A DNA stretch of 64,000 nt, taken from a virus. Taxonomy: Duplodnaviria; Caudoviricetes. Of the stretch, positions 37,858 through 64,000 are shown one piece after another. Every line of letters begins with the position of its first letter. The first letter of the stretch is position 1. The translations under genes and the position numbers were made by a program. The notes under the pieces were generated by a model. That model searched no databases. It was not told the DNA's origin and saw only the letters and a list, made by a program, of their open reading frames with translations. The DNA lies in IMG/VR virus record IMGVR_UViG_3300026077_000001. One strand, given 5' to 3'.

Positions 37858-37863
37858 AATATT

Positions 37864-39363: not shown

Positions 39364-39366
39364 ATT

Positions 39367-42562: not shown

Positions 42563-42564
42563 TT

Positions 42565-47016: not shown

Positions 47017-47017
47017 T

Positions 47018-47683: not shown

Positions 47684-48348
47684 CCTATAAAATTAAAGAT
47701 GGTGAGGACTGGGTATTGTACAGATCACCAGTTGTAGAGCACGAGCAAGAAGAAATGCTACGTCAACTAGGACGTGGTTATAGACTCTTCAAAGAGACAT
47801 TTACTGGTCTTGATAGTTCTTTAAGGCAAGAGGGTTTAACACTCGGTGCACTGCCATCTCTGTTCAATGTAGATCACGTTAAGAAGGATAGAGAGCACTT
47901 AGATAATATGGACACTAACTATTCTGGTTATCGGTTCTATAATCTATTTTCATTGACTGCACCATCACCATTATTCTGGTTATTGCTACAAGATATAAGG
48001 ACAGTAGTTAGAACAACGTTAGGAACTGATGAACCATTATGGATGCAATGTTGGGTTAATATGCACAAACCAAATGAAGTATTAAATTGGCACGATCATA
48101 AGTTTGATTATCACGGATATGTAAGTATTGACCCAAAGAACAGCATAACAAAATTTAGAGATAGTAGAGGTCCATTATATGAAATAAATAATGAAGTTGG
48201 TAACATTTATTTCGGACCTGGATGGGAACGAATGCACAAAGTATGTGTTAATGAAGAGTACGAAGGTAATAGAATTACCCTAGGATTTGATATAGAAACA
48301 CGAGGTGACTTACCAGACGACCAGTTCTCTCTTATCCCTTTACTGTGA
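47680..48348 (+). CDS. 2OG-Fe(II) oxygenase-like
   Basis: WVN...WHDH...HKV...RITLGFD. Confidence 0.7.
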   Translation: MTYKIKDGEDWVLYRSPVVEHEQEEMLRQLGRGYRLFKETFTGLDSSLRQEGLTLGALPSLFNVDHVKKDREHLDNMDTNYSGYRFYNLFSLTAPSPLFWLLLQDIRTVVRTTLGTDEPLWMQCWVNMHKPNEVLNWHDHKFDYHGYVSIDPKNSITKFRDSRGPLYEINNEVGNIYFGPGWERMHKVCVNEEYEGNRITLGFDIETRGDLPDDQFSLIPLL

Positions 48349-49912: not shown

Positions 49913-49955
49913 CTGTCACATATAACTAGCATTTTGCCTTGTTTGCCTGTATGAT
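49898..49955 (+). promoter_or_regulatory. Early promoter with palindrome
   Basis: GTGACAAAC-GTGT-AACTGTCAC then TATGAT 30 nt downstream. Confidence 0.65.
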
Positions 49956-49976
49956 TAATACAGTTAAGCAAGGCAT

Positions 49977-51209
49977 TTGAGTATCACACTAAGACCACAC
50001 CAGAAAAGAGCACTCGAAGCAATGGGTGACAATGATAAAGGACAGATCATTGTGCCTACTGGTGGTGGTAAGACAATGATAATGATACAGCACGCTATCA
50101 AGCATTTTGAAGAGAGTCCAGTACCACAGACTATAGTTGTAGTTGCACCTCGTATTCTATTGGCACAACAACTATGTACTGAGTTCACATCATTGATTGA
50201 TGCTGATGTGTTACACGTCCATAGTGGTAAGAATGAGTATAAGAATACTACTGACCCTAAAGTTATTCAAGAGTGGGTAGATAACAATACAAATAATATA
50301 CTAATCTTTACAACATACCATTCACTTCATAAGGTATGTGTATTGGATGATGTTGACATAGTATATTATGATGAAGCACATAATAGCACAACTAAATCAT
50401 TTTTTCCTGCTGTTCAGGAGTTTAGTCAGAGAGAACAAACTAAGGACTATTATTTCACAGCAACACCTAAGTATGGAACTAGATCTAATTTCATAGGTAT
50501 GAACATACCTAGCATTTATGGTGAAATAATAGAGAATGTTACTGCTAGTGAGTTGATTGACAATGGTTCAATCATACCACCTACAATAGTACCATTTAAT
50601 GTTAATGGCACAAGGACTAGACAGAATGCTCACGAGTTTGATGTAGATGCAACACTAGACCTACTTGATGAGATAGATGATAATGAATTGACCCCTAAAG
50701 TGGTTGTCAGTATTGGATCTTCTAAGGTTCTTCAGTCAATGTTAGGTAGAACACCACTATTACAAGAGTTAAAAGATCGTGGATATGATGTATTACACGT
50801 CACTAGCAAGTTTGGTGCATACGTTAACGATAAGAAAGTATCAAGGTCTCAGTTTATGACCACACTAAATGAGTGGGGAACTGATGATGATAAGAAGTTT
50901 ATCGTATTTCATTACTCTATACTATCTGAAGGTATATCAGTTAGTGGATTGACTCACAGTATTATGTTGAGACAGTTGAATCTCATAGAAATGGCACAGA
51001 CAATAGGTAGAGTTATAAGGATGGATGCACGAGACAAGGCAGATATTAGTTCAAATAAACTGAAATCTGGTCAAGTGCAGTTCTATCGCAAGTCAACTGG
51101 TTATGTGTGTGTACCTATGAGCAGTAAAGCAACAGTAGCAAGATTACAAAGAGTAGTGGACGACATATTTGTTAAAGGTATCCCACCACTTCCTCTATCG
51201 TATAAATAA
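49977..51209 (+). CDS. SF2 DEAH helicase (restriction-enzyme-Res-like)
   Basis: LRPHQ, PTGGGKT, YYDEAH, FTAT, ILSEGI, QTIGRVIR; TTG start. Confidence 0.88.
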   Translation: MSITLRPHQKRALEAMGDNDKGQIIVPTGGGKTMIMIQHAIKHFEESPVPQTIVVVAPRILLAQQLCTEFTSLIDADVLHVHSGKNEYKNTTDPKVIQEWVDNNTNNILIFTTYHSLHKVCVLDDVDIVYYDEAHNSTTKSFFPAVQEFSQREQTKDYYFTATPKYGTRSNFIGMNIPSIYGEIIENVTASELIDNGSIIPPTIVPFNVNGTRTRQNAHEFDVDATLDLLDEIDDNELTPKVVVSIGSSKVLQSMLGRTPLLQELKDRGYDVLHVTSKFGAYVNDKKVSRSQFMTTLNEWGTDDDKKFIVFHYSILSEGISVSGLTHSIMLRQLNLIEMAQTIGRVIRMDARDKADISSNKLKSGQVQFYRKSTGYVCVPMSSKATVARLQRVVDDIFVKGIPPLPLSYK

Positions 51210-51239
51210 ATCAGGCACAGTATTAATTAGGATTTAACA

Positions 51240-51659
51240 ATGGCAACTACTCAAGTAAATAATTGGGCAGATTTATTGCTTGCTCAACTAGCAGCAAACG
51301 CTAAGGCATATAGATTGAAAGCAGTAAATGATAGCATCACCAGAGTAAGTGCTCAACAAGGAGCAGCAGAATATCGCTTTACAAATAAGAAAGCAAAGAT
51401 TGAAGCGGATGACGCTAGTGTCACTTGGACATTCAGCAAAGCGGATGCAGCAAGTGGTGATGATGTAGTAATATCAGCAACAGCACCAGTTGATAGAGGT
51501 GGACATACTAAAGTATGGGGAATAATAGAAGGCACAAGTGGTGATAATGAAGGATATGTAAGAAAGTCAACAAGTGACCCTTATGTGGATGCCAATTCAT
51601 TAGGTGACACATATCGTGCAGCATTCTTTGATAAGGTTAATCAATTTGGATGGGGATAA
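51240..51659 (+). CDS. Orphan late-expressed protein
   Basis: TATAAATA at 51201-51208; 139-aa ORF with no recognised motif. Confidence 0.65.
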   Translation: MATTQVNNWADLLLAQLAANAKAYRLKAVNDSITRVSAQQGAAEYRFTNKKAKIEADDASVTWTFSKADAASGDDVVISATAPVDRGGHTKVWGIIEGTSGDNEGYVRKSTSDPYVDANSLGDTYRAAFFDKVNQFGWG

Positions 51660-51729
51660 TACCATAATATGTGCCACTCAACAAACTGTCTCGCATTTGG
51701 TTGCAAGGCAGTTTTTTTGTGTATAATAA

Positions 51730-51898
51730 GAATGTTGAGGGATATGTGGTTCCTATGCCCGAAACATCATCTGCAGTAACTGATTCGCTCATCTGCAGTA
51801 ACTGATGTAGTAGGGGTTCAGGTGTAAGCGATTCCCATAGGTTAAATTTGGACTCTTGGGTGAAACCCATTTAAGTTAGTCCCACTCTCTCAACATTC
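51730..51898 (+). ncRNA. Structured RNA candidate with an internal 18-nt direct repeat
   Basis: 13-bp closing stem GAATGTTGAGGGA/TCTCTCAACATTC; CCTATG/CATAGG; GGACT/AGTCC; TGGGT/ACCCA; starts just after TATAAT 51722. Confidence 0.65.
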
Positions 51899-51915
51899 AA
51901 TTATATGGAGATTAG

Positions 51916-52205
51916 ATGACATTACAGTTTTTGACAACAGTCTTGAACAACTTCTGTTCAAACAATGGTTTACCATTTCAGTCAGCAGATGACTTACGTC
52001 ACAACTATCAAATTACTCTAACAAAATATCAAGAGAATTGGTTAGAGCAATATGGTAAGGTGTGGGATATCGTAGTGGAGAATGCAGACTAATGACTATT
52101 CAAGAATACAAAGAACTCATAGCACAAGACACATTAAAAATTGGATGTGAACTTGAAGATGTGACTGATGAGTGGTATGATGAAGAAGGCAACCTAAAAG
52201 AATAA
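51916..52205 (+). CDS. Two small ORFs (51916-52092, 52092-52205)
   Basis: Hand-translated 58 aa and 37 aa; GGAG RBS; TAATG coupling. Confidence 0.55.
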
Positions 52206-52206
52206 T

Positions 52207-53121
52207 ATGAAAGATACCATATTATATGGAGATTGTCGAGAGACTCTCAAACAATTTGATGAAAAGGCGAGGATGTGTGTAACATCACCGCCTTATTATG
52301 GTTTAAGAAACTATGGTAACGAGGACAATCAAATTGGATTAGAACAAACACCTGAAGAATACATTAAACAATTAGTTGAAGTATTCAGGTCAGTTCGTGA
52401 TGTACTTACGGATGATGGAACACTATGGGTAAACATAGGTGACACATACTATAATTACAGATCAGATGGTAATTATCCTAAGCAAACAGTATCTAAAACT
52501 AATCAAGATTTACCAACATTTACACCAGTTAGAGGTAACAAGTTTGATAACTTAAAATCTAAGGATTTAATTGGTATACCTTGGATGTTGGCATTTGCTT
52601 TGAGGGATGATGGATGGTTCTTACGTCAAGATATAATATGGCATAAACCAAATCCAATGCCTGAAAGTGTTAGAGATAGATGCACTAAATCTCACGAATA
52701 TATCTTCTTATTATCAAAGAATAAGAGATATTATTATGATAATGAAGCAATCAAAGAACCTGCTAAGGACTGGGGAACCAGAGATAGAACCAATGGCAAG
52801 TATCACAATAAAGGAACTGGACTGCAACCACATTCAGGATTGACCAAATCATATCCTATGAAGAATAAAAGAAGTGTGTGGTCAGTCACGTCCAAACCTT
52901 ATAAAGGTGCTCACTTCGCTACTTTCCCACCTGATTTGATAGAACCTTGTATCAAGGCAGGATCTTCACAAAATGACATAATTCTTGATCCATTTATGGG
53001 ATCAGGCACAACTGCAATGGTAGCAAGGGAACTGGGTAGGCATTACATAGGATGTGAGTTACATAACGACTATTCTAACCTAGTTCAGAAGCGATTAGGG
53101 TTGTTCCAGTTCACAAACTGA
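52207..53121 (+). CDS. Beta-class N4-cytosine/N6-adenine DNA methyltransferase
   Basis: TSPPY motif IV precedes DPFMGSGTT motif I; IIWHKPNPMPESVRDR. Confidence 0.92.
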   Translation: MKDTILYGDCRETLKQFDEKARMCVTSPPYYGLRNYGNEDNQIGLEQTPEEYIKQLVEVFRSVRDVLTDDGTLWVNIGDTYYNYRSDGNYPKQTVSKTNQDLPTFTPVRGNKFDNLKSKDLIGIPWMLAFALRDDGWFLRQDIIWHKPNPMPESVRDRCTKSHEYIFLLSKNKRYYYDNEAIKEPAKDWGTRDRTNGKYHNKGTGLQPHSGLTKSYPMKNKRSVWSVTSKPYKGAHFATFPPDLIEPCIKAGSSQNDIILDPFMGSGTTAMVARELGRHYIGCELHNDYSNLVQKRLGLFQFTN

Positions 53122-53187
53122 ACACATTTACACCCATTTCACTCATTTACCATTATTATAAGAGAGTTCAAACGATTTTATTGATCT

Positions 53188-53514
53188 ATGCCAACTGCAA
53201 CTGCTACTCAAGCGACTACAACACCACGCAAGAGAGCAAGACGCAAAGCAGCAACCACTTCAAAGACTGTCACAAAGAAGGCAGCAACACCAAAACTAAA
53301 TAAGGTAGTTGCAGTTCCACAAGTGTCACGTCCACAAGTTGAGTTGATATCAAGAGATCAGTACATTCAGGACATCAAAGCACGTTGGTCAGTACATCAG
53401 TATGAGATCAACGAGTTAGGCAAGGATCTCAAATTTGGTTATGAGTATCTTGTCAAGCAATCAGTTTTACTTATTGATTATTGCAAGAATTCATACAACA
53501 GAGCATTCAACTAG
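53188..53514 (+). CDS. Early protein with a basic, low-complexity N-terminus
   Basis: TPRKRARRKAATTSKTVTKKAATPK; own palindrome promoter. Confidence 0.7.
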   Translation: MPTATATQATTTPRKRARRKAATTSKTVTKKAATPKLNKVVAVPQVSRPQVELISRDQYIQDIKARWSVHQYEINELGKDLKFGYEYLVKQSVLLIDYCKNSYNRAFN

Positions 53515-53537
53515 ACCACTTGAATTACTGACACACT

Positions 53538-53560
53538 AGCACCCTATATGGGTGCTTTTT
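53538..53560 (+). terminator. Intrinsic terminator inside a promoter spacer
   Basis: AGCACCC-TATAT-GGGTGCT followed by a T-run. Confidence 0.7.
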
Positions 53561-53590
53561 AATGTAATATAATAATAGTTAAGGAATTTT

Positions 53591-55275
53591 ATGAACAACT
53601 TCGCTGAGTTTATTGATTACTGTATGTCATTCTACAATGATGTTGATGGACTCTATCCCATTGCTAACCTAACAGAAGAAGAGTTAGCACTTGCAACTCT
53701 CAAGTATCTTGACCTATGTGCATCATCCGATATTGAGTGGGGTGATGGCGATTCACTTGATCGTGAGCGTGTACGCAACATAGTCATTGAGTCTAGAGCA
53801 ATAAAGCAAGGTGGATGGATAACAGATGAACCAGTTAGCAAAGTGTCCACAAAATCACCAAACCTACCAAATTTCGTGTAATATAAGAATATGAACAAAA
53901 CAATCACACTTTCCGATCAGCAACATTCACTACTTGTGGATTTATTCTCTTCAATCGCTGATCTAGACTTGCAAGAGCATTGCGAGGACTCAACAGAATT
54001 CGATTCCCTATGGGATGCAGTTATAGACGCTAAGGAGGTCAACTAAATGTCAACATTACATCACGAGTCAATAATGGAACAATGTCACGATGAAGCGTGG
54101 GAGAGTTTCAGAAAGCATAACAAATTGACTGAAGATCAGTTAAATGAGTTATGTTGGAGACAAACTTCAGGCACATTACTTGCAATAGAAAAGCAAGCAC
54201 AGAGACTATTTGAAGCGAGGTGCCAATGAGTTACACCCAAAACGAAACAGCACTTCTTACTTTGATTTCTAACATCAACAACCAATTTTATTATATTGGC
54301 GAGGACAATGATAAAGTTGCACCAGTTGATGTTAAGAAATTTACTCAACATTGTGTAGCATTTATTGACTCTTTGGAGATCGAACAATGATAGTAAACTT
54401 TACAGCATCCATAGTATGTGATGATGAAGGAGTAAATCCACTTCATTTATGTGAAGAAATTCAAGCATATTTAAACTCTAATCATAATGAGAGTTACATT
54501 GACACTAAAGTGATAAGTTATAAATTAGAAGTTGATAAACAAGTCCCATTCTTTTATCAGGAGGAGTATTAATGCAAATTGAATTAACATTTGACGAGCA
54601 ATATGAGTTCGTTAAGTTATACGATCTACTCAGAGATATGGACTTTGAGTTAACACCTAATCAAACAAATGTGTTTGATAAAATATTAACAAATGGAGGA
54701 CAATCCTAATGAAAAGACAACTAACTTCACAACAATGGGATGAACTAATTGAACAGTATGTTCAGTTACAAGTTGATAGTATGGACTACAAATCTTTAGA
54801 GCAATTTGTTAAACAAACTCTAACACAAGATCTAAGAGAAATTGAGTATAGAGAAGATTTATGTGATGAAATTAAATATACATTTGATGAGGAAACATTG
54901 AATGAGTTAGTTGATAACGTAACTAATGAAACTGTACTTGACATTAACAACAATGGAGGTAAGTATTAATGAGAGAAGATTTAATGCCAGATGGATTTAA
55001 TGGTGAAATTAACTACAATGATGACGGAACCATTAATCTCAATGGTAACCTACTTCCAGAGGATTTAAGAGTAGTATCAGAGATAATATTTGATACTATA
55101 GCAAATTGTGGTCTATTTGATGACCACGATAAATTTTCATTTCAAATAAACATTAAGGAGGAAATTGACAATGATTGAATTATTTGTTATTGTTGGAGGT
55201 GCATACGCTCTTTATGTGTGTGGTGTTGCTATTGCAACAAATTTAGATTATTACGAGGTTAACAAACGTGATTAG
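53591..55275 (+). CDS. Early-region small ORF run (53591-53881, 53891-54046, 54047-54229, 54226-54390, 54387-54572, 54572-54709, 54709-54969, 54969-55178, 55171-55275)
   Basis: Consecutive coupled acidic ORFs with GGAGG RBSs; several hand-translated. Confidence 0.65.
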
Positions 55276-55432
55276 ATTTATTTTTGGATGTGTGTGCATC
55301 TTTATGGGTGTTAACATTCTAATCAATGTTATGAATAGCACAATGGTTGACAGTTGGGAAGAGAGGAACAGGACACTTCAAGAACTGACACAACCAAATC
55401 CCATTCAACCCTAAAATCAAGTATATTATAAA

Positions 55433-55543
55433 TGTGGGGGATGGTTCGATTCCATCACTAACGTGGATACGAAGATCTAGGTCTAAAGATTCGTGAACTG
55501 CTTCTAAGAAGAGAAAGCACGAAATTACTAGGTCATTCCCACA
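55433..55543 (+). ncRNA. Structured RNA candidate with a tRNA-like T-arm
   Basis: GATGG-TTCGATT-CCATC; closing TGTGGG/CCCACA; GATCTAG/CTAGGTC; TTCGTG/CACGAA; follows an early promoter. Confidence 0.6.
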
Positions 55544-55564
55544 ATCAATTTTACAGGATTTTAA

Positions 55565-55804
55565 ATGAATTTATTTGATGCAGTTCCAACAGTTGTAAGA
55601 GACAATTTTCAAGGATACGACAAGGGTGAATCAATTTCAGTTAAAGAGATCACCAACGCAGTATTTCAGGTAATTGATCTATGTGACAACTTTGACAAGG
55701 ACACCATCAAAATGACAACATTTAGACAAATCCGTCTAATGGTCTCAAATGGTGTTGATATGTTACTCAATGACCCGATTCAATTTAACGAGGTAATGTT
55801 CTAA
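55565..55804 (+). CDS. Hypothetical protein
   Basis: 79-aa ORF coupled to the nuclease gene. Confidence 0.65.
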   Translation: MNLFDAVPTVVRDNFQGYDKGESISVKEITNAVFQVIDLCDNFDKDTIKMTTFRQIRLMVSNGVDMLLNDPIQFNEVMF

Positions 55805-56322
55805 TGAATGTTGTTATTGACAAGATGCAATCACCCGAAGCAAAGTATCAACAACTGTTCGAAGCAATGTATCAACTTTGTGACGAAAATAACTGGGGAG
55901 ATCCTTTCAGTTATGCACGAAGCAGAGAGATACATTTAGCGAGCATACTTGGGCACCGAGTTAGTGATACTTTATCAGGTGCAGATGCCTATGATGAGAA
56001 TAACTTACCAGTTGAATATAAGTCAACTATTGGTAAGAAACTAACAGCAACTTATAACGGCATAAGTGTACAAAACTCGTGGGAGGAGCAAGTTAACTAT
56101 CTTAGAGAAGATAAGATAGGTAAGTATCACAAACACTTCTTTGCTAGGTATCATTTAGGCAAGGTAGTTGAGATTTGGGTTATGAATGCGGATGACGTAT
56201 TACGCATACTAATTGATAACCTAGAGAGACAATTTAAGACAGTTGGTAATAAGAAAGACCCCAGACTTGGGTACACTATTAGTAACAAACTCATCCAAAC
56301 TTACGGAACTAAAGTATTATGA
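55804..56322 (+). CDS. PvuII-fold type II restriction-like endonuclease
   Basis: GADAYDENNLPVEYKS matches PvuII GNDAVDNAGQEYELKS spacing; KIGKY and C-terminal GTKVL also correspond; recalled sequence, no search run. Confidence 0.7.
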   Translation: MNVVIDKMQSPEAKYQQLFEAMYQLCDENNWGDPFSYARSREIHLASILGHRVSDTLSGADAYDENNLPVEYKSTIGKKLTATYNGISVQNSWEEQVNYLREDKIGKYHKHFFARYHLGKVVEIWVMNADDVLRILIDNLERQFKTVGNKKDPRLGYTISNKLIQTYGTKVL

Positions 56323-56700
56323 GCATTGAACAATTAAACCCAGAGAGAGAACAATCCATTGATCTTATTGCTGAAACTTATTACAATCGTATGAAATTAC
56401 ACGTTGATAATAATAACCCACGCAATGCAGAAGCACTATGTTTAGAATACTTAGTGGACGGAATTGACCCCGAAGATGGTAACTATTCCTGGATGTTCTT
56501 ACAACATTTAGATAGTTTGTTTGAGTGATTACAGTCCTTAAGTATGACTTTAAACTGCTTAATCTGTTCCCTTAATTAACAATCAAATGGCAGAATCCAT
56601 CCTTGAAAACAACTCTTACCTAGTTGAATTATTTGATGAATGTGTTAATGGTAATGACATATTAGCATTACTAGATGAACTCTACCCTAGTGTGGACTAA
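56319..56700 (+). CDS. Two small ORFs (56319-56528, 56587-56700)
   Basis: ORF track plus hand translation. Confidence 0.55.
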
Positions 56701-56737
56701 TTTACATTTAGTCTATGACAATTAAATAAGTGGCACA

Positions 56738-56762
56738 GAACCCCTGTTATCAGGGGTTTTTT
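56738..56762 (+). terminator. Intrinsic terminator inside a promoter spacer
   Basis: AACCCCTG-TTAT-CAGGGGTT followed by a T-run. Confidence 0.7.
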
Positions 56763-56802
56763 CCTTTATAATAGGTACATACCAAACAAAGGCATTTAAC
56801 TT

Positions 56803-57126
56803 ATGAGAAAGATTGAAGCAGCAATGAACAGAGCAATCAGAAGCAGATCAAACTGGAGTTCAGGCAACACCAGAGTTGAAATCACACCTGATAATGACGC
56901 TCTTGTTTATCTTCATTCTAACCTTATTGGTAAGGTATCTCAGCATTTTGTTAAACTATTTGACGGCGGATGGCAGTCCAACACTACGAAATCCCGTTTA
57001 AATGCTATTTTGGATGAATTTCATTATGGTAGCGGAGTATTTCAAAGAGACTGGACTTGGTACGTTAATTTACAAATAGGAGGACATATTCCTTTCTATT
57101 CAGGTATAGAACTAAACCACAATTAA
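56803..57126 (+). CDS. Conserved early cyanophage protein
   Basis: MRKIEAAM...VYLHSNLIG...TTKSRLNA; TATAAT at 56767. Confidence 0.75.
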   Translation: MRKIEAAMNRAIRSRSNWSSGNTRVEITPDNDALVYLHSNLIGKVSQHFVKLFDGGWQSNTTKSRLNAILDEFHYGSGVFQRDWTWYVNLQIGGHIPFYSGIELNHN

Positions 57127-57280
57127 ATTGCCAAAATGTCACAAACTAACTACAAAATGACTGAAGAAACTTACAAACAACTTTGCAATCCTACCCCAAT
57201 TATTAAGTATTACTTCTTAATAAATGATCGGGTTAAGTATAACAAACGTTGACAAGGTATCAAACTATGATATATAATGA

Positions 57281-57305
57281 GGGGAGTAAATAACCCCTCT
57301 TTTTT
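57281..57305 (+). terminator. Intrinsic terminator
   Basis: GAGGGG...CCCCTC followed by a T-run. Confidence 0.65.
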
Positions 57306-57319
57306 ATTACAAACTCGTT

Positions 57320-57976
57320 ATGGACAATAGTAACATTTTATCGGACGATCTTTCATCCATAAGTGATAAGAATGAAAGCACAGTTTACGGTATGTTTATG
57401 ACACCAGTAGGGGTAAAATCTCTCACTAATCATCAACAACATAAACAGACTATATTAGATTATATCAGCAAATTGTCGCCTGAAGATGTCACAAACAGTT
57501 CCAGGAAAGATATAAACAATGGGGTGCTACAATTAGGTCAATTAGGTTTACTTAACCTAGAACAGTTCTTAACACTTAAGGAGGACATAATTGAAGCAGT
57601 TGTTGATATAAACTCTAAATCACTATGTTATGACTTAGGAGACAATCCTAATATAATTGATGATACTTTAGAGTTGACAAATAAGGGTGGAATGTATGCA
57701 CCACACGAGCAAAGTAATTGTCTTTATAGTGCAACTTATTTTGTAAATTGGGATATTAATTTACATTCACCATTACAATTTAAACGCAATGTAACATCAA
57801 CTCATTACCCAGTTATTCAATACAATCAAACACAAATTACCCCTTTCAATATGTTAGATGGAACAGTACCAATTACAGAGGGTTGTTTATGTTTATATCC
57901 ATCAAATATGGTGCGAGGGTATCAACAAAACAACGAAGGTAACCGTATTAGTTTAACATTTAACATTGGACTTTGA
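57320..57976 (+). CDS. Degenerate TIGR02466-like 2OG oxygenase
   Basis: HEQ...YPSNMVRG...RISLTFN; two iron ligands appear substituted. Confidence 0.65.
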   Translation: MDNSNILSDDLSSISDKNESTVYGMFMTPVGVKSLTNHQQHKQTILDYISKLSPEDVTNSSRKDINNGVLQLGQLGLLNLEQFLTLKEDIIEAVVDINSKSLCYDLGDNPNIIDDTLELTNKGGMYAPHEQSNCLYSATYFVNWDINLHSPLQFKRNVTSTHYPVIQYNQTQITPFNMLDGTVPITEGCLCLYPSNMVRGYQQNNEGNRISLTFNIGL

Positions 57977-57999
57977 CCCCTTAATTATCATTTAACGCT

Positions 58000-58329
58000 A
58001 TGAATCCCTTTAAAAAAATTGATAACGATACCTATCAAGATGATGCTGGTATTTTATACAAACCTATCCCTAATTACGAGGACTATTTTGTATCTAACGA
58101 AGGACAGATATATTCAACTAAGTGGGGTAAATGGAAGAAATTAAAGATACATTTAAACGAAAATGGATATAGACGTGTTACTTTAAGACAAAATGGTAAG
58201 ACAGTTGTAAGAAGATGTGCACGATTATGTGCTCTTGCTTATCATCCAGGCGGAACAGATTACCAGAACGTTATTCACATTGACAAAAACAAATTGAATG
58301 ACCAAAGTAATAATCTAAAATGGGTATAG
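58000..58329 (+). CDS. NUMOD4-HNH homing-endonuclease-like protein, probably degenerate
   Basis: PIPNYEDYFVSNEG, GYRRVTL, CARLCALAY, HIDKNKLN...NLKW. Confidence 0.75.
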   Translation: MNPFKKIDNDTYQDDAGILYKPIPNYEDYFVSNEGQIYSTKWGKWKKLKIHLNENGYRRVTLRQNGKTVVRRCARLCALAYHPGGTDYQNVIHIDKNKLNDQSNNLKWV

Positions 58330-58531
58330 TTTGTATTAGTTTTCCACACAATTTCCACAACTAAGTAATATTTTGTGGATTAAATAAATGGTTAAATAAA
58401 CATACTTTAGTGTTTTATATTGATGCTCTTAAATGTTATAAACCCCACGAGGAATAGCGGTGTTAGGAGTATATATAAGAACGGAACAGTTGTCAACACA
58501 TAGGGGACACACATATTTGTGTCACAAATGC

Positions 58532-58560
58532 TTGACATTTTTCCACAATTCGTTTATACT
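58532..58560 (+). promoter_or_regulatory. Sigma70 promoter
   Basis: TTGACA-N17-TATACT. Confidence 0.8.
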
Positions 58561-58603
58561 AACTGTATGAACACTAATTAACACAAACTCGCTCTAATTT
58601 CCA

Positions 58604-59082
58604 ATGGGAAGGACTTACAAACGTAACGACACGTATGTATCAAATAGACCAAAAAGTTTGAGAGAAAAGAGAAACAAATCAAAGCGTAATAAGACGCTTG
58701 ATTATAAACAATCCAACTCACAATCATTCCAGGAAACTAACACAAATGGACAAACAAATTAAACCCACTAATAGTAAAGAATGGGTGGAATATATGCTTG
58801 ATAATAGTGATAATCAAGACGCTAATCTGGTCGAGGTTAGTGATAGTTCATTTGGAGATTTGGATCTTGACTATACACATTCCCAGTAAATATGCAATCT
58901 ATTTGGATCTATTAGATGAGGGTAATTTGCCACCTGATGAACAAATAGACCTGGCACAGTTCTTAATAGATACTGACCTTAATAACCAGTTGCTTCAGTA
59001 TCAACAACTATGCGATTATTTCATTGCGGAAGGGTTATGTTATGACGTGCAATTTGAGGAGGAAAGTATTAACAACTCGTAG
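58604..59082 (+). CDS. Three small ORFs (58604-58762 basic MGRTYKRN..., 58746-58889, about 58850-59082)
   Basis: Hand translation and ORF track; third start uncertain. Confidence 0.55.
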
Positions 59083-59305
59083 CCCCACTATGTAACACAA
59101 ACTAGCACGTAATCGTGGAGACTAAGTGATACTAACTAGTGCACGCACTAAGTAACACAAATTAATCACGATTGCACTCACTAATTAACATTTTGCTTAT
59201 ATTAATTTTTGCACTAAGTGTAACCTACAAAAGTATAGGATGGCATATATTATCGAAATCGCAATAAATGGTACCTAGATATATAAAAAATTTCCCAGTA
59301 TAAAA

Positions 59306-59722
59306 ATGACCAAAAAGGTTCGCAAGAAATTAGAAGACCAGTACTACCACTACCTTGGCAGAGAATGGTCTAAGACTAAGGGTGGAGGTTGCTTCACCCT
59401 TCTTTATGATATGGGTAAGGACATTGGTTACCATACCTGCAAAGAAGACTACAGTTTCACCGCCAAAGAGTTCCTCAAAGACCTGTGGGAGGCAGAAGGG
59501 TGGTCTGTACTGAAAACATCAGAGATGGGAGAAGTCTTTGATATAGACGATCTGCAGAAGTTTGATATATTGGTGATGAGGTTGGATAAACGTCTCAATC
59601 ACTGTGCTGTATACCTAGGAGAAGGTTACTTATTACATCATCTAGCATTTGATGTCTCAAAGATAGAGTCTGTTCAATCCTATATACCGAAGACACTCTA
59701 CGTGATAAGAAAAGATGCATAG
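59306..59722 (+). CDS. NlpC/P60-family peptidase
   Basis: Cys (GGGCF), His (NHCAVYLG), His (LLHH) triad. Confidence 0.8.
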   Translation: MTKKVRKKLEDQYYHYLGREWSKTKGGGCFTLLYDMGKDIGYHTCKEDYSFTAKEFLKDLWEAEGWSVLKTSEMGEVFDIDDLQKFDILVMRLDKRLNHCAVYLGEGYLLHHLAFDVSKIESVQSYIPKTLYVIRKDA

Positions 59723-59879
59723 ATTTACCACTAAGATATTGGAGGATGACCATACAGGGGATCTGTACGTCATTCTACCAGACACTATATTCGCAGAAGC
59801 TGACTTAATGGCAGGTGATGAGGTAGAATATAGCGTAGATAACGAAACCATTTTATTGGAGAAAACCAACAATGAGTGA
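59715..59879 (+). CDS. AbrB/MazE-like small DNA-binding protein (54 aa, not in ORF track)
   Basis: GDLYVILPDTIFAEADLMAGDEVEYSVDNETILL swapped-hairpin pattern. Confidence 0.6.
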   Translation: MHRFTTKILEDDHTGDLYVILPDTIFAEADLMAGDEVEYSVDNETILLEKTNNE

Positions 59880-60217
59880 CTTTACTTCACAAGAGGAAAA
59901 ATTGTGTTATGATGCTGTTAGGTATTATCAAATGAACCACATTGGTCCTTTCAAACACGCAGCATACGAGACTTGCAACAGCATTCTCAGAAAACTCGAA
60001 CACACGCAACCCTATTATAATGAGCAAACAGTCGGAACCGCAGACTGAATGGACTGCTACGTTCACGAAGGAGGAACGTCAGTTAATATGCAACTCTGGC
60101 AAATGGTGTTTGTTATACAAGGCTGAGGTCTGTGGTGGCAAACCCCTTGAAAATGTACAGAGGATATGGAGAAGTATAAGAACAAAGTTGGAATCTGGTG
60201 ATGATTTCTTAGAGTAG
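59872..60217 (+). CDS. Two small ORFs (59872-60048, 60020-60217)
   Basis: Hand-translated, overlapping coupled ORFs. Confidence 0.5.
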
Positions 60218-60259
60218 TAAACCCCTTAAAACCCCTCCTCCGCCGAGCGACGCAACATT

Positions 60260-60775
60260 ATGGAGATTAATGATAGATTCTTAGATCCGTATGAATATGG
60301 ACAACTAAGAACGGCTATAGAAGCAGATACCTTCCCTTGGTACTATGGGAGGAAGACCAATCATATTGCCCAGATGTTTGATCCTGACTTAATTAAGAAG
60401 GAGAAGTATAACTGGCATATGTTTAACCTAATGTACTCTAATGGGGTTCCTATGACCCCTGAGTACGACCTTATACTAGGATTAATAAACAAGATTAAAC
60501 CGAGGGCAATTATACGAGTGAAGGCGAATATGACCCCAGTTGCGGATACTGTCCGTGAGTTTGAAATGCATAACGACATAAACGATGATAAAAAAGGGGA
60601 ATCAAAGACCTCAATCTACTATATAAATGATAACGATGGTTTTTCCTTATTTGAAGATGGTTCGAAAATTGAATCAGTAGGGAACAGGTTAGTAACATTT
60701 CCTGAGTCTATGATGCATTGCGGAACGACTTCAACTGACGAAAGACGTATTGTAATAAACTTAAACTACTTTTAA
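60260..60775 (+). CDS. 2OG-Fe(II) oxygenase
   Basis: MHND, YYINDNDG, MHCGTTST, RIVINLNY. Confidence 0.85.
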   Translation: MEINDRFLDPYEYGQLRTAIEADTFPWYYGRKTNHIAQMFDPDLIKKEKYNWHMFNLMYSNGVPMTPEYDLILGLINKIKPRAIIRVKANMTPVADTVREFEMHNDINDDKKGESKTSIYYINDNDGFSLFEDGSKIESVGNRLVTFPESMMHCGTTSTDERRIVINLNYF

Positions 60776-60777
60776 AA

Positions 60778-61335
60778 ATGCAAATGGATTGTTGTGTCAT
60801 TTGTGGCACCACTGAGAACCTACATCATCACCATATTATACAAAGGAATTCGAAACTAGCTGATGATATGATCGGCAAAGAGTATGAAGGTTCTACTATA
60901 GACAGGGATTGGATTAATAACCACCCACATAACCAGATTACAGTATGCGTCCCACATCATAAGTGGGTACACGGTTTGAGATATTCATTAAGAGACAAAG
61001 CTTGGTCTGAGAGTGTTAAAAGAGGTCAAGCAAAGGCAAGAGCAGAAGGTAGATTACCTGGTGCACCTAGACTTGCTGATGAGAAACGTGATATGATCTA
61101 TAAGATGTACGATGAAGGTAAGAAATGGATAGAGATTAGAGAAGAGGTAGGAGTAGGTTTTAACAGTATATCCAAATGCTTACGAGCTAGAGGAACGAAG
61201 CTTAATCGTATTAAGCGTGACTTCAATGATACGTATTGGGACGGTAAAGCAGACCTATGGTTTAAGGAAGAACAAGAAAGACTGAAGAAACCACGTATCA
61301 AGCGTGATTTCTCAGATTTAGCACTATTAAGTTAA
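60778..61335 (+). CDS. HNH endonuclease with C-terminal helix-turn-helix
   Basis: CVICG...HHHHII...NQITVC..HH..VH; resolvase-type HTH (IREEVGVGFNSISKCL). Confidence 0.7.
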   Translation: MQMDCCVICGTTENLHHHHIIQRNSKLADDMIGKEYEGSTIDRDWINNHPHNQITVCVPHHKWVHGLRYSLRDKAWSESVKRGQAKARAEGRLPGAPRLADEKRDMIYKMYDEGKKWIEIREEVGVGFNSISKCLRARGTKLNRIKRDFNDTYWDGKADLWFKEEQERLKKPRIKRDFSDLALLS

Positions 61336-61337
61336 TT

Positions 61338-61601
61338 ATGGAAATCCCTGAATTTGAATCATATGAAGCCGAATTGGAATGGAGGTTTGAAAGGATTGCT
61401 GAATCCATCAAGACTCTTGCCAAACAAGCTCAGTCTCACGAAGCGTTCTTAAAGCGTGGAGCAGAGATGATACAGTATAAGATACCAGGAACAGATAAGT
61501 ATTCTAATCTAAAAGAAGTGTTTGACGATCTATATGCCCGACTAAATAAGTTGGAGGTACATTACCTAAATGCCAGCTTACCTGATAGAGACAGGACGTA
61601 G
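61338..61601 (+). CDS. Hypothetical protein
   Basis: 87-aa ORF. Confidence 0.65.
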   Translation: MEIPEFESYEAELEWRFERIAESIKTLAKQAQSHEAFLKRGAEMIQYKIPGTDKYSNLKEVFDDLYARLNKLEVHYLNASLPDRDRT

Positions 61602-64000
61602 TTATCAGAATCCCGTAGATTCACACGAATACTCCCGTTCATATACAACTGAAGATCATCAAGCATTTGCCCAGTTCGGTCCTGGTGGGTATCAGATTAA
61701 GGTGGAAGGAAGTGGTCCTGGATCATATGAATTTGGAAAAGATGAAGTTTATTATATCGGAACACAGGTTGAGACTTGCGTTGCTAACTGTGATGCGGAA
61801 AGAAGACCTATATGGAGATGGTTCTCTTGTAGGAGAGTAGATCATACTTGGCATTACTTAAAAGAACTACCTGATAGCGTTCCTTTTAATCCTAGACGTT
61901 ATAATGCAGAACCTAGGAATAAGAGGGAGGTCTTTTATCTTTCAGAGAAGAGTCTGACTGGTAATCAAGAGTTATTCTTATTATATGACGCTGCAAACTT
62001 TAATAGTTATTTCTCTACAGTTAGTGGTGCTAGTACAGTAGCAGCATCATTTGATTCAAGTGGTAATCTAGTTTGTACAGGATCAGGTACCGCTACGATT
62101 ACATTTAACTTTAGTTGGAACGATAATCCTAGTACTGCTGGTACTGCATTAGGAACATATGCAATTCCTAGTCTGAATATATCATTTACTCAAAGTGGAA
62201 GGACTGGTACTGCAGTTCCACAGACTGCTACGATTACAGGTGGTCAAACATACAACTGTACCATTACTAATGGTAACTCAGCAGGGTTTACCTTACAAGA
62301 TAGTAATACTAAGATATGCTTTAAGGATGGAGACGGTAGTGATTGCAATGCTTCACTTACTACAGGTATACTTAATGACCCAGGTAACTCAGTTGCTAGT
62401 CTAGGACATATCTGGTCTTCATCTGCTGCAGCAGTCTCTGCAGGTGTAACACATCCTGGTGAGTCACTAATACCTCTGTATCATTATAAGAGGTTAGATA
62501 TCATCGATGATTTCTATACTACAGACCCAGCTAATGAGTACAACCTAGAGATGGACATTCCTGGTGTCCCTAACTGTAAGTTACCACTAGATCAGGCATA
62601 CAAGTATCAAGGTATATTGGGATATGTGTTCTCTAGAAATGCACCACGTAAGAAGAAGCAGGTTGTTGAATCAGGTAAACCTATCAATACTGGAGAGGTT
62701 TCTAGGTCAACTTGGTACGAATGGGATGAAGATGGAGGCTATGGAGAGGAAGATTATAACGAACAATCACCCCCTGCAAGCACTTTAGGTTGGGGAAACC
62801 CCGATAATGCCGAATTAATCGATGAAAAAGGCAATTTTGAGTGGTATTATGGCAAAAATGGTGCTGTAAAGGCAGCTTTACCCCGATTTTTGGGTTTTCA
62901 CGACGCTTTTGAGGGTCAATTCGTGTATTATTTGTATGATACCGTATTTCCCTTCTCTGGACCCATATATGGCATCAATTTGATCACTACTGATGCACCT
63001 TGTAATCCGTCTACTGCTGACTGTCCACACGACCCGCATACAACTTACCACTCTTATTACTATCAGATGCGTCAAGATGCGTGGGTGACCCAAAAAACAC
63101 ATATTGCAGTCGATGCACCAGCTGGAAGTGGTCTTCAAGAGTCATTTTGGGCTGTAGGAACCGATGATTTGATGATATTCTTCCGATATACGAACGAAGA
63201 TGGGTTCTATACGGTTGGAGAACAGATAAATGGTTGGTTGATCCAAAGTGTAAGGTATTTTGGTGATGAATTAAGATGTGGTTATATGAGATTACAACCT
63301 ATAGCAGGTCAAAATGGCAATACTTTCCAATATCAACAGACATTTAACTCTGATAATGGAGCAATTGCTTCAATTTTAGCTGGATATGGTATAAAAGACA
63401 AAGCGTGTTTCTTTGGAGTATATGAATTTCCAAAGAAATTGTCGTATTATAAGGTAGAAATTGATAATGAAGCACAGATACCCAAAAGAGATTTTGATGA
63501 AGCTATACTAGAAGCAACAGTTAATGATGCAGGACAAATAGGATCTATTGAAATCATCAATGGTGGTAGAGATTATACTAACCCACAGGTGGTTATTTCT
63601 ATTCCTGACCTTGCAAGACAAGAAGGATACTCTGATACTGCGTCTCATATACCAGAAACCTTCGAAGATAACGTATCTGGAGAGATTGCAATCAGTTATC
63701 AGACTAATGATGACTTTAAAGAGGCAGGTTATGATGCTACAAACGTTGCAGGTAACGTAAAAAATCAACAATATATCACTGAAGCTGGATATACTGGTAA
63801 TATTAAGCAAGCAGAAGCGACTGTTACTATAGATGCATTAGGTTGTGTCAAGACAGTAACCATTGCTGACCCAGGTGCTGGTTATCAACCTGGTGAAGAA
63901 GTACAGATCTCTGTAGTACAACGTGATAAAAAGACTCGTAGTGACTCATATGTTGCTGAAAGTGCTGTAGGACTTGAAGAAGAATTGGATAGATCACTAA
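61570..64000 (+). CDS. Large virion structural protein (baseplate-wedge-initiator-like), 3-prime truncated by the window; absent from ORF track
   Basis: MPAYLIETGRSYQNPVDSH...; the frame appears open to the window end (810 codons); GRDY/GAGY repeats. Confidence 0.75.
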   Translation, partial: MPAYLIETGRSYQNPVDSHEYSRSYTTEDHQAFAQFGPGGYQIKVEGSGPGSYEFGKDEVYYIGTQVETCVANCDAERRPIWRWFSCRRVDHTWHYLKELPDSVPFNPRRYNAEPRNKREVFYLSEKSLTGNQELFLLYDAANFNSYFSTVSGASTVAASFDSSGNLVCTGSGTATITFNFSWNDNPSTAGTALGTYAIPSLNISFTQSGRTGTAVPQTATITGGQTYNCTITNGNSAGFTLQDSNTKICFKDGDGSDCNASLTTGILNDPGNSVASLGHIWSSSAAAVSAGVTHPGESLIPLYHYKRLDIIDDFYTTDPANEYNLEMDIPGVPNCKLPLDQAYKYQGILGYVFSRNAPRKKKQVVESGKPINTGEVSRSTWYEWDEDGGYGEEDYNEQSPPASTLGWGNPDNAELIDEKGNFEWYYGKNGAVKAALPRFLGFHDAFEGQFVYYLYDTVFPFSGPIYGINLITTDAPCNPSTADCPHDPHTTYHSYYYQMRQDAWVTQKTHIAVDAPAGSGLQESFWAVGTDDLMIFFRYTNEDGFYTVGEQINGWLIQSVRYFGDELRCGYMRLQPIAGQNGNTFQYQQTFNSDNGAIASILAGYGIKDKACFFGVYEFPKKLSYYKVEIDNEAQIPKRDFDEAILEATVNDAGQIGSIEIINGGRDYTNPQVVISIPDLARQEGYSDTASHIPETFEDNVSGEIAISYQTNDDFKEAGYDATNVAGNVKNQQYITEAGYTGNIKQAEATVTIDALGCVKTVTIADPGAGYQPGEEVQISVVQRDKKTRSDSYVAESAVGLEEELDRSL

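What the first reader, a model, noticed from the sequence alone, without database searches (positions are those of the whole stretch)
55804..56322. Early-expressed PvuII-like endonuclease: a possible host-DNA cutter whose site the phage has purged
The 172-aa protein tracks R.PvuII (recalled from memory) end to end: GDPFSY vs NDIFQD; GADAYDENNLPVEYKS vs GNDAVDNAGQEYELKS (D58/E68/K70 spacing identical); KIGKY vs IIAKY (Y94); GTKVL vs GTKIY. It lies downstream of an early palindrome promoter and has no adjacent cognate methyltransferase. CAGCTG itself occurs in this genome (e.g. about 1006, 1132, 12363), so the specificity is probably different or is covered by methylation. CATG shares PvuII's outer CA..TG bases. 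Hypothesis: a self-immune-by-avoidance nuclease that degrades host or competitor DNA to feed nucleotide synthesis (thyX, nrdC, cp12, phoH).
Basis: partly seen in the sequence, partly recalled or inferred. Interest (0 to 1): 0.85.

Follow-up and report, generated by a model that had tools for sequence, protein, structure and literature searches.

The report
Lone PvuII-type nuclease, CATG-free phage
A marine T4-like cyanophage carries a restriction-enzyme gene of the PvuII family without a protecting methylase. Its DNA holds not one CATG, whereas related phages that keep a small adenine methylase beside the gene still have CATG, so the enzyme most likely cuts CATG in host or rival DNA.

Summary
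The ORF at 55804-56322 (172 aa) is real and is a full-length homologue of R.PvuII. A family profile hits PvuII chains end to end (E about 3e-8). The AF2 model (pLDDT 91) matches PvuII best (Z 13.9). D61/E71/K73 align with PvuII D58/E68/K70. The positions that read CAGCTG in PvuII are replaced by another, invariant set, and CAGCTG occurs at chance frequency.

The window has 0 CATG (about 225-330 expected). In related viral contigs the gene is usually followed directly by a ~185-aa NPPF adenine methyltransferase ('c0'), which the window lacks.
- Nuclease with c0 (n=40): median CATG O/E 0.36.
- Nuclease without c0 (n=40): 32 have zero CATG, as do 180 kb analysed from each of two complete genomes.
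- Neither gene (n=72): median O/E 1.06.

CATG is the most discriminating 4-mer, and sampled picocyanobacterial (possible host) DNA has normal CATG. The 304-aa N6/N4 methylase 2.7 kb upstream is a common cyanomyovirus gene, not the cognate.

The best reading is a solitary CATG-specific type IIP endonuclease that the phage tolerates because its genome has no site. Activity, early expression and the host-DNA role are untested, and independent evolutionary contrasts are few (about 4-5).

The parts
55804..56322 (+). Gene for a 172-aa PvuII-family (PD-(D/E)XK) endonuclease homologue ('pvu'). An alternative start at 55825 (M8) is possible.
   Evidence: ORF; PHROG 35715; profile hit to PvuII chains; AF2 pLDDT 91.3; Foldseek and VIA top hits are PvuII; dN/dS 0.05-0.19 among solitary copies.
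55984..56022 (+). Catalytic motif D61-x9-E71-x-K73, aligned with PvuII D58/E68/K70.
   Evidence: Alignment. These residues are invariant in 34 unique c0+ and 20 unique c0-/CATG-free homologues.
56065..56082 (+). S88-V89-Q90-N91-S92-W93, the strand aligned with the PvuII recognition strand S81-T82-H83-H84-H85-M86. Candidate DNA-reading element.
   Evidence: alignment. S88/V89 are invariant and Q90/W93 nearly so in the family. The PvuII histidines are not kept.
56254..56265 (+). K151-D152-P153-R154, the loop aligned with PvuII D138-I139-N140-N141. Candidate second DNA-reading element.
   Evidence: alignment. D152/P153/R154 are invariant and K151 nearly so.
55165..55193 (+). Sigma-70-like promoter match (TTGACA-17-TATTGT with TG), followed by a small palindrome at 55224-55239. 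Possible start of the transcription unit.
   Evidence: It is a consensus match only: the number of such sites in the region equals the shuffle expectation.
55565..55804 (+). 79-aa ORF whose stop overlaps the pvu start (TAATG). Function unknown; found only in the window's own clade.
   Evidence: no Pfam or PHROG hit.
56319..56528 (+). 69-aa ORF whose start overlaps the pvu stop (ATGA). PHROG 710, function unknown. It sits where c0 sits in relatives, and the window plus 16 further solitary-pvu loci (of 38) have it there.
56737..56760 (+). Intrinsic-terminator-like hairpin (10 pairs, then a T run) that would close the unit.
52207..53121 (+). 304-aa N6/N4 DNA methyltransferase (PF01555; CcrM-like by NCBIfam). 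It is context and not the cognate methylase.
   Evidence: It is present in many cyanomyoviruses without pvu and absent from the pvu+ genomes G006, G008 and G009 (two of them complete).
1..64000 (.). The whole window is free of CATG, the inferred target site.
   Evidence: 0 sites against about 225 (base composition), 239 (Markov) or 326 (shuffles) expected.

Best explanation
The gene encodes an active, homodimeric type IIP restriction endonuclease of the PvuII family that has a different specificity from PvuII, most probably CATG. In many related cyanomyoviruses it forms a two-gene restriction-modification cassette with an NPPF N6-adenine methyltransferase (c0) encoded directly downstream, and their CATG sites would be protected by methylation. 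In the window's lineage the methylase is absent and every CATG has been removed from the genome, so the phage is immune to its own enzyme by lacking the site. Once made in the infected cell, the enzyme would cut any unmodified CATG-bearing DNA. Candidates are the host chromosome (sampled Prochlorococcus/Synechococcus chromosomal loci, taken as candidate hosts since the window's own host is unknown, carry about one site per 300 bp) and the DNA of co-infecting phages.

Shown here: homology, fold, a conserved catalytic triad, purifying selection, the gene linkage with c0, and the three-way association with CATG content.

Inferred: CATG as the recognition site, c0 as a CATG adenine methylase, nuclease activity, timing of expression, and the physiological target (host or competitor DNA).
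For: Homology and fold:
- The family profile matches PvuII end to end at E about 3e-8, with D61/E71/K73 on D58/E68/K70.
- PF09225 hits above the curated cut-off occur in homologues.
- The AF2 model has pLDDT 91. PvuII is the top hit by Foldseek and by VIA-align (Z 13.9, with NhoI next at 10.9).
- Homodimer prediction through helices 10-29 and 40-53: score 0.52, best of 3 controls 0.09. That mark was reached by 20 of 30 proteins solved as pairs of one chain and by 1 of 23 solved as single chains. The runs agree in at least 86% of contacts and partner pLDDT is at least 83. The pass may reflect memory of solved PvuII dimers.

Specificity differs from PvuII:
- The positions aligned with the PvuII segments that I recall as DNA-reading (D34, H83-85, N140/N141; my knowledge of the PvuII-DNA co-crystals, not checked here) hold Y37, VQN(S/T) and PR instead.
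- CAGCTG occurs 9 times against about 9-11 expected.

The partner gene c0:
- It starts -13 to +19 bp after pvu in 40 loci and about 1 kb away in 7. It lies within 77 bp downstream in 51 of 68 further c0 loci and 0.4-1.1 kb away in 4.
- It is PHROG 799 'DNA methyltransferase' at E 7e-32, carries an SNPPF motif, and its model matches M.TaqI and M.BseCI best.
- Among phage isolates c0 occurs only in P-TIM68, P-SSM2 and P-SSM5, which are exactly the pvu carriers.

CATG association:
- pvu+c0+ (n=40): median O/E 0.36. pvu+c0- (n=40): 32 loci with zero CATG. pvu-c0- (n=72): median 1.06, with 2 loci at zero.
- CATG is the top 4-mer that separates c0+ from c0-, and among the top two (with CACG, the likely replacement) that separate pvu+ from pvu-.
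- The two complete genomes G006 and G008 have pvu, no c0 and no N6/N4 methylase, and 0 CATG in 180 kb each, against about 610-660 expected. The c0 search found c0 in 5 of 5 positive controls.
- A second, deeply diverged pvu lineage (15 loci) is likewise c0-less and CATG-free.

The solitary gene is maintained:
- dN/dS is 0.05-0.19.
- Catalytic and putative recognition residues are identical in c0+ and c0- groups.

Candidate host DNA has the site: CATG O/E is 0.75-1.1 in 11 Prochlorococcus/Synechococcus chromosomal loci.

Context: cyanomyoviruses lack T4 denA, denB and ndd, so their means of host DNA degradation is an open question (PMC2984593).
Against: - There is no biochemical evidence for cleavage or for the site.
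- The association has few independent contrasts, about 4-5: the window's large clade, an embedded c0+ subclade, L065, and the L149 lineage. The independent-pairs test cannot reach significance.
- Exceptions exist. Four c0+ loci are also CATG-free and four more nearly so. Eight pvu+ loci without c0 in reach keep some CATG, one of which, P-SSM2, has c0 6.6 kb away; L368 (14/54) is a further one. L155 and L157 are CATG-free fragments with no pvu.
- 13 of 68 c0 loci have no pvu, so c0 can act as an orphan methylase.
- Cyanomyoviruses purge other palindromes (CCGG, GCGC; AGCT strongly depleted) regardless of pvu, so outside forces can remove 4-mers.
- A few 6-bp palindromes, such as GACGTC, CTCGAG and GTCGAC, are also absent and cannot be formally excluded as targets.
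- Only 64 kb of this genome was available, so c0 could lie elsewhere in it.
- No known CATG enzyme belongs to the PvuII family: NlaIII is HNH, and CviAII had no fold assignment in 2008 (PMC2441816).
Confidence: 0.65

Rival explanations
1. CATG avoidance and the c0 methylase are both answers to an outside CATG-specific nuclease, such as a host restriction system or a rival phage's enzyme. The PvuII-like protein would then cut some other site, for example a rare 6-bp palindrome that is also absent, or act on other substrates. Its link with CATG would come from shared ancestry and gene neighbourhood.
For: There are few independent contrasts. c0 occurs without pvu in 13 of 68 loci, and those loci still show CATG depletion (O/E 0.1-0.7). 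L155 and L157 are CATG-free without pvu. Several c0+ loci are also CATG-free. Other 4-mers are purged in all cyanomyoviruses. Some 6-mers are absent from all solitary-pvu genomes.
Against: c0 sits within a few bases of the pvu stop in 40 of 47 and about 50 of 55 loci, the layout of an R-M operon. c0 was in none of 72 pvu-less control loci, and among isolates it is only in the pvu carriers. A fully CATG-free state is nearly confined to pvu+ c0- genomes (32 of 40 against 2 of 72). An unprotected solitary restriction enzyme must have a site that is missing from its own genome, and CATG is by far the strongest such site. The absent 6-mers are equally absent from phages without pvu.
Confidence: 0.17
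2. The gene is a selfish or mobile nuclease, homing-endonuclease-like or the remnant of an addiction module, that spreads among cyanomyovirus hyperplastic regions. It would contribute nothing to host DNA breakdown and act mainly in phage-phage gene conversion or exclusion.
For: Its distribution among isolates is patchy: 3 phages (6 GenBank/RefSeq records). It lies in the variable small-ORF region, and its position relative to the helicase and methylase varies. PD-(D/E)XK homing enzymes such as I-Ssp6803I appear among the fold hits at Z 7.5. A NUMOD4 homing-type ORF lies 1.7 kb downstream.
Against: The best match by far is a classical type IIP enzyme over its full length, with a predicted symmetric dimer. 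It is linked to a methylase rather than inserted in a conserved target gene. Genome-wide purging of a 4-bp site is not what a long-site homing enzyme would cause.
Confidence: 0.1
3. The protein is not a conventional nuclease. It would be either a modification-dependent enzyme, like the PvuII-fold enzymes NhoI and Eco15I, or a catalytically silent DNA-binding protein.
For: NhoI and Eco15I are the next-best structural hits at Z 10.9 and 9.1. One source names some homologues 'DNA-binding protein Fis'.
Against: The D/E/K triad is invariant and under purifying selection. A methylation-dependent enzyme encoded next to a methylase would be self-destructive. The similarity to PvuII is stronger than that to NhoI or Eco15I in both sequence and fold.
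Confidence: 0.05

Closest known systems
R.PvuII (Proteus hauseri type IIP restriction endonuclease, CAG^CTG; PDB 1PVI, 1NI0 and others; Pfam PF09225)
   Same: Same fold over the whole length (Z 13.9, 153 of 157 residues). Same D-x9-E-x-K catalytic motif. Similar size (172 against 157 aa). The predicted symmetric dimer uses the N-terminal helices.
   Different: Identity is only about 18-22%. The positions aligned with PvuII's DNA-reading residues (D34, H83-H85, N140/N141, as I recall them) are replaced. CAGCTG is not avoided. The partner methylase in relatives is an NPPF adenine methylase, whereas M.PvuII (from my knowledge) is an N4-cytosine enzyme. The gene is in a lytic phage and, in this window, stands without a methylase.
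Chlorovirus PBCV-1 CviAII restriction-modification system (A252R/A251R; CATG, m6A)
   Same: A virus-encoded R-M pair with an adenine methylase, for the very site inferred here (PMC7248222). Chlorovirus endonucleases are thought to help break down host DNA (my knowledge; not checked in a paper here).
   Different: The host is eukaryotic. The virus keeps its methylase and its CATG sites. R.CviAII had no fold assignment in 2008 (PMC2441816) and did not appear among the viral fold hits. No homology was shown.
Phage T4 endonucleases II and IV (denA, denB), with self-immunity through hydroxymethylcytosine DNA
   Same: Phage nucleases that destroy host DNA while the phage's own DNA is not a substrate. 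This function has no known agent in cyanomyoviruses (PMC2984593).
   Different: The protein families are unrelated. T4's immunity comes from base modification, whereas here it would come from complete absence of the site.
NlaIII / iceA1-type CATG endonucleases
   Same: They cut the site inferred here and are paired with m6A CATG methylases.
   Different: They belong to the HNH superfamily (PMC2441816), not PD-(D/E)XK. They are not homologous.
NhoI / Eco15I (PvuII-fold, 5mC-dependent endonucleases; PDB 8Q5N, 8Q5M)
   Same: They are the second-best structural matches (Z 10.9 and 9.1).
   Different: They need methylated DNA, sequence similarity is negligible (E 0.2), and such an activity would be incompatible with an adjacent methylase.

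Membership tests
PvuII restriction endonuclease family (Pfam PF09225) | The protein itself reaches the Pfam gathering score. | tested here: not met
   There is no Pfam hit for the window protein even at E<=1. Close homologues do reach it: P0085 at 26.8 bits and P0159 at 30.6 bits, against a cut-off of 25.
PvuII restriction endonuclease family (Pfam PF09225) | Detectable full-length sequence homology to R.PvuII. | tested here: met
   A profile of 42 family members hits PvuII chains at E 2.9e-8 to 8.6e-8, covering profile positions 10-167 and chain residues 13-157.
PvuII restriction endonuclease family (Pfam PF09225) | PvuII fold (PD-(D/E)XK core plus an N-terminal helical dimerisation subdomain). 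| tested here: met
   The AF2 model has pLDDT 91.3. The top 12 Foldseek hits are all PvuII. VIA-align gives Z 13.9, rmsd 3.8 over 153 residues, above all other chains.
PvuII restriction endonuclease family (Pfam PF09225) | Catalytic Asp ... Glu-x-Lys at the PvuII positions. | tested here: met
   D61/E71/K73 align with D58/E68/K70 and are invariant in 54 unique homologues.
PvuII restriction endonuclease family (Pfam PF09225) | Homodimer. | tested here: met
   This is a prediction only. Score 0.52, best of 3 controls 0.09. The mark was reached by 20 of 30 proteins solved as pairs of one chain and by 1 of 23 solved as single chains. The runs agree in at least 86% of contacts and partner pLDDT is at least 83. 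The pass may reflect memory of solved PvuII dimers.
PvuII isoschizomer (CAGCTG specificity) | PvuII's DNA-contact residues (D34, H83-H85, N140, N141, K143) are kept. | tested here: not met
   The aligned positions hold Y37, V89-Q90-N91-S92 and P153-R154. These residues are conserved within the family.
PvuII isoschizomer (CAGCTG specificity) | The own genome is protected from, or depleted of, CAGCTG. | tested here: not met
   There are 9 CAGCTG sites in the window against 8-11 expected. No m4C-type cognate methylase is linked to the gene.
Type II restriction-modification system | The endonuclease gene is accompanied by a cognate methyltransferase gene. | tested here: not met
   For this window, there is no c0 homologue anywhere in the 64 kb. 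The N6/N4 methylase 2.7 kb upstream is not linked to pvu across phages. The feature is met in relatives, where c0 lies directly downstream.
Type II restriction-modification system | Sequence-specific, Mg-dependent cleavage that is blocked by the cognate methylation. | not testable with these tools
   This needs enzyme assays. CATG is inferred only from genome composition.
c0 as an N6-adenine DNA methyltransferase | SAM-dependent Rossmann fold with an (N/D)PP(Y/F) motif. | tested here: met
   The SNPPF motif is invariant. PHROG 799 matches at E 7e-32. The AF2 model (pLDDT 73) matches M.TaqI and M.BseCI best, at E about 2e-5. There is no Pfam or NCBIfam hit above threshold.
Homing endonuclease | The gene is inserted in, or next to, a conserved target gene and has a long asymmetric site. 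| tested here: inconclusive
   The neighbours vary and no interrupted gene was seen. I-Ssp6803I reaches only Z 7.5.

The most novel reading that the evidence does not exclude
Lineages of marine T4-like cyanophages have turned a CATG restriction-modification cassette into a free-standing weapon. They dropped the methylase, erased every CATG from genomes of about 180 kb, and kept the PvuII-fold endonuclease under purifying selection. The enzyme can then shred the host chromosome and any co-infecting phage that carries unmethylated CATG. Phages with only the methylase (c0 alone) would be the counter-move. This would be a PvuII-fold CATG enzyme (none known to me), and perhaps part of the missing host-DNA degradation function of cyanomyoviruses.
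Probability: 0.5. Interest if true: 0.85.

Novelty: new variant of a known kind. Interest (0 to 1): 0.72.

Why it matters
Restriction enzymes without a protecting methylase are expected to be lethal to their carrier. A lytic phage that escapes this by having no site at all would be a clean natural example of immunity by avoidance directed at the phage's own enzyme rather than at the host's.

It gives a testable candidate for how some cyanomyoviruses, which lack T4's denA, denB and ndd, attack host DNA or exclude rival phages in the ocean's most abundant phototrophs. The comparative pattern (nuclease plus methylase with CATG kept, nuclease alone with CATG gone, neither gene with CATG normal) predicts the specificity of an uncharacterised enzyme family from sequence alone. 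If it holds, the enzyme would add a CATG cutter of a new fold class, possibly with a new cut position.

Tried and rejected
- Direct Pfam, NCBIfam and PDB sequence searches with the single protein gave nothing. A profile of close homologues only (A1) also missed PvuII; the wider alignment A2 was needed.
- AGCT, the core of the PvuII site, looked strongly depleted in pvu loci. Controls showed the same depletion in cyanomyoviruses without pvu, and the window still has 86 AGCT, so it was rejected as the target. CCGG, GCGC and CGCG were rejected for the same reason; they also hold no adenine for an NPPF methylase.
- The 304-aa N6/N4 methylase was rejected as the cognate. It is widespread without pvu and absent from complete pvu+ genomes.
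- No whole genome is held for the window, and 4-base patterns cannot be sent to the genome search.
- The contigs behind the CATG-free, pvu-less loci L155, L157 and L115 were searched for pvu and none was found. They are 6-16% fragments, so this decides nothing.
- A distant soil homologue (P0260) has no methylase next to it on its 1.5-kb contigs. That is uninformative.
- Longer homologues showed no informative methylase fusions. One has a Zeta-toxin/AAA domain and one a Myb domain.
- The BFVD viral fold library gave only weak matches and no chlorovirus enzyme. ESM Atlas features only echoed the PF09225 link.
- Literature searches found no paper on this gene family, on CATG avoidance in cyanophages, or on expression timing of the P-SSM2 or P-TIM68 orthologues.
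- ARAGORN and Rfam found no RNA gene near the locus.
- No partner gene is conserved downstream in all solitary-pvu loci, so an obligate protein inhibitor is unlikely.
Full report
**1. What is there.**
The window is part of a T4-like cyanomyovirus. It holds gp32, baseplate genes, thyX, phoH and a Kyanoviridae Gp96 gene. Its nearest isolates are Prochlorococcus phages.

The ORF 55804-56322 (+) encodes 172 aa. It overlaps a 79-aa ORF upstream (TAATG) and a 69-aa ORF downstream (ATGA). A sigma-70-like match lies at 55165-55193 and a strong terminator-like hairpin at 56737-56760. These would delimit a small transcription unit. Promoter-like matches in the region are no more frequent than in shuffles, so 'early expression' is not shown.

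**2. The PvuII likeness is real.**
- The single sequence finds nothing in Pfam, NCBIfam or PDB.
- The family is large: 1363 relatives in the 5.8-billion-protein set and 197 clusters at 50% identity, nearly all from marine viral metagenomes.
- Ten of 25 close relatives hit PF09225, one of them above the curated cut-off.
- A 42-sequence profile hits PvuII chains end to end at E about 3e-8.
- The AF2 model (pLDDT 91.3) has PvuII as its top 12 Foldseek hits. By VIA-align PvuII scores Z 13.9 over 153 of 157 residues; next come the PvuII-fold enzymes NhoI (10.9) and Eco15I (9.1).
- D61, E71 and K73 align with PvuII D58, E68 and K70.
- A symmetric homodimer through the N-terminal helices is predicted. 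The score is 0.52 and the best of 3 controls 0.09. That mark was reached by 20 of 30 proteins solved as pairs of one chain and by 1 of 23 solved as single chains. The runs agree in at least 86% of contacts and pLDDT is at least 83. The pass may reflect memory of PvuII dimers.

**3. It is not a PvuII isoschizomer.**
The positions aligned with PvuII D34, H83-H85 and N140/N141 (the DNA-reading residues as I recall them from the co-crystal structures; not checked here) hold Y37, V89-Q90-N91-S92 and P153-R154. These residues are themselves invariant in the family. CAGCTG occurs 9 times, which is the chance level.

**4. CATG.**
The window has no CATG at all, against 225 expected from base composition, 239 by a Markov model and 326 +/- 18 in shuffles. 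CCGG and GCGC are also absent, and CGCG, GGCC and AGCT are depleted. Those depletions are found in cyanomyoviruses in general, including P-SSM4 and P-HM1 and 53 control loci without the nuclease. They are therefore unrelated to this gene.

**5. The decisive comparison.**
I fetched 80 viral contigs that carry a relative of the nuclease ('pvu'). As controls I fetched 80 cyanomyovirus contigs anchored on the common 304-aa N6/N4 methylase.

- *A partner gene, c0.* Clustering the neighbours of pvu showed a gene of about 185 aa, 'c0'. It starts -13 to +19 bp after the pvu stop in 40 loci and about 1 kb downstream in 7.
- *c0 is an adenine methyltransferase.* It has an invariant SNPPF motif, matches PHROG 799 'DNA methyltransferase' at E 7e-32, and folds like the N6-adenine methyltransferases M.TaqI and M.BseCI.
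- *c0 and pvu travel together.* Among phage isolates c0 occurs only in P-TIM68, P-SSM2 and P-SSM5, exactly the isolates that carry pvu. In P-TIM68 the order is common methylase, pvu, c0. In P-SSM2 c0 lies 6.6 kb from pvu.
- *c0 is missing here.* The window has no c0 and no remnant of one.
- *CATG follows c0*:

| Group | Loci | Median CATG O/E | Loci with zero CATG |
|---|---|---|---|
| pvu with c0 | 40 | 0.36 | 4 |
| pvu without c0 | 40 | 0.00 | 32 |
| neither gene | 72 | 1.06 | 2 |

- *CATG stands out among k-mers.* It is the 4-mer that best separates c0+ from c0- and, with CACG close beside it, pvu+ from pvu-. CACG, the likely replacement for CATG, rises in step.
- *Whole genomes agree.* The two complete viral genomes G006 and G008 have pvu, no c0 and no N6/N4 methylase, and 0 CATG in 180 kb each, against about 610-660 expected. 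A third genome, G007 (94% complete), likewise has pvu and no c0; its CATG was not counted genome-wide. The c0+ genomes G009, P-SSM2 and P-TIM68 have 140/621, 192/390 and 256/323.
- *A second lineage repeats the pattern.* A deeply diverged pvu lineage of 15 loci is likewise c0-less and CATG-free.
- *The solitary gene is maintained.* dN/dS is 0.05-0.19. Its catalytic and putative recognition residues are identical to those of the c0-linked copies.
- *Candidate host DNA has the site.* Chromosomal loci of Prochlorococcus and Synechococcus, taken as candidate hosts because the window's own host is unknown, have CATG at 0.75-1.1 of expectation, about one site per 300 bp.

**6. Interpretation.**
The simplest account is that pvu and c0 are a type II R-M pair specific for CATG. 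The window's lineage keeps the endonuclease alone and is immune because its genome has no site. Unmodified CATG-bearing DNA in the infected cell, whether host chromosome or rival phage, would be the substrate.

This matters because cyanomyoviruses lack T4 denA, denB and ndd, so how they degrade host DNA is unknown (PMC2984593). The nearest functional analogue is the chlorovirus PBCV-1 CviAII system (CATG, m6A), which keeps its methylase (PMC7248222). Known CATG enzymes are not PvuII-like: NlaIII is HNH, and CviAII had no fold assignment in 2008 (PMC2441816).

**7. Limits.**
- Nothing was measured biochemically.
- On the pvu tree the pattern reduces to about 4-5 independent contrasts, and the independent-pairs test cannot reach significance.
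- There are exceptions: CATG-free loci that still have c0; loci without a nearby c0 that keep some CATG (L048, L051, L368 and others); and the CATG-free fragments L155 and L157 without pvu.
- c0 also occurs alone in 13 of 68 c0-anchored loci, with CATG still depleted. This fits an arms-race reading, but it equally fits the rival view that CATG pressure comes from outside.
- A few absent 6-bp palindromes cannot be excluded as targets.
- Only 64 kb of this genome was available.

**8. Verdict.**
I put 0.65 on a solitary CATG-specific endonuclease with immunity by site avoidance. It is a new variant of a known kind: a PvuII-family type II enzyme, phage-borne, without a methylase.

Noticed in passing
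window 1-64000; L083 (P-SSM4), L084 (P-HM1), control loci L085-L164; host loci L217-L255: Cyanomyoviruses as a group, whether or not they carry the nuclease, have almost no CCGG, GCGC, CGCG or GGCC and very little AGCT. Prochlorococcus and Synechococcus chromosomal loci have these 4-mers near expectation, and AGCT above it. The cause was not pursued; host restriction systems are one possibility.
   Followed up: partly
L083:20591-23189 (P-SSM4 40590-43188): P-SSM4 carries an annotated 'restriction endonuclease II' (240 aa) and a second methyltransferase directly upstream of the common N6/N4 methylase. This neighbourhood therefore seems to be a hot spot for different R-M-like cassettes in cyanomyoviruses.
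   Followed up: no
L290, L302, L325, L326, L329, L330, L331, L336, L338, L340, L342, L345, L348: Thirteen contigs carry the c0 methylase without any PvuII-like ORF, even by profile search, and have CATG at 0.1-0.7 of expectation. In several of them an unrelated ORF of about 165 aa sits where pvu would be.
   Followed up: partly
L155, L157 (IMG/VR fragments): Two related cyanomyovirus fragments are completely CATG-free (0/40 and 0/43) but show no pvu on the 11-22 kb available. They are not close to either CATG-free pvu lineage at the DNA level. This is unexplained.
   Followed up: partly
window 56319-56528: A 69-aa ORF (PHROG 710, unknown function) overlaps the pvu stop codon. The window and 16 further solitary-pvu loci (of 38) have it directly downstream, in the place that c0 holds elsewhere. 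A role as regulator or inhibitor was not tested.
   Followed up: partly
window 55425-55460: An intergenic stretch (GGGGGATGGTTCGATTCCATCAC) looks like a tRNA T-arm, but ARAGORN and Rfam find no tRNA. It may be a tRNA remnant.
   Followed up: yes
L205, L206 (contigs binned as 'Methanobacteriota archaeon' MAGs), L214 (194-kb contig in a Synechococcus MAG): These contigs carry a thyX 69-77% identical to the phage's and show the CCGG/GCGC-free composition of cyanomyoviruses. L206 also has CATG 1/45 and AGCT 0/45. They are probably phage contigs placed in the wrong bins.
   Followed up: no
window 58000-58329: An ORF with a NUMOD4 motif, typical of homing-endonuclease modules, lies 1.7 kb downstream of pvu.
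   Followed up: no
P0162 (557 aa), P0157 (243 aa): Some metagenomic relatives of pvu are fused to other domains: a Zeta-toxin/AAA kinase domain at the N terminus, or a Myb-like DNA-binding domain at the C terminus.
   Followed up: no
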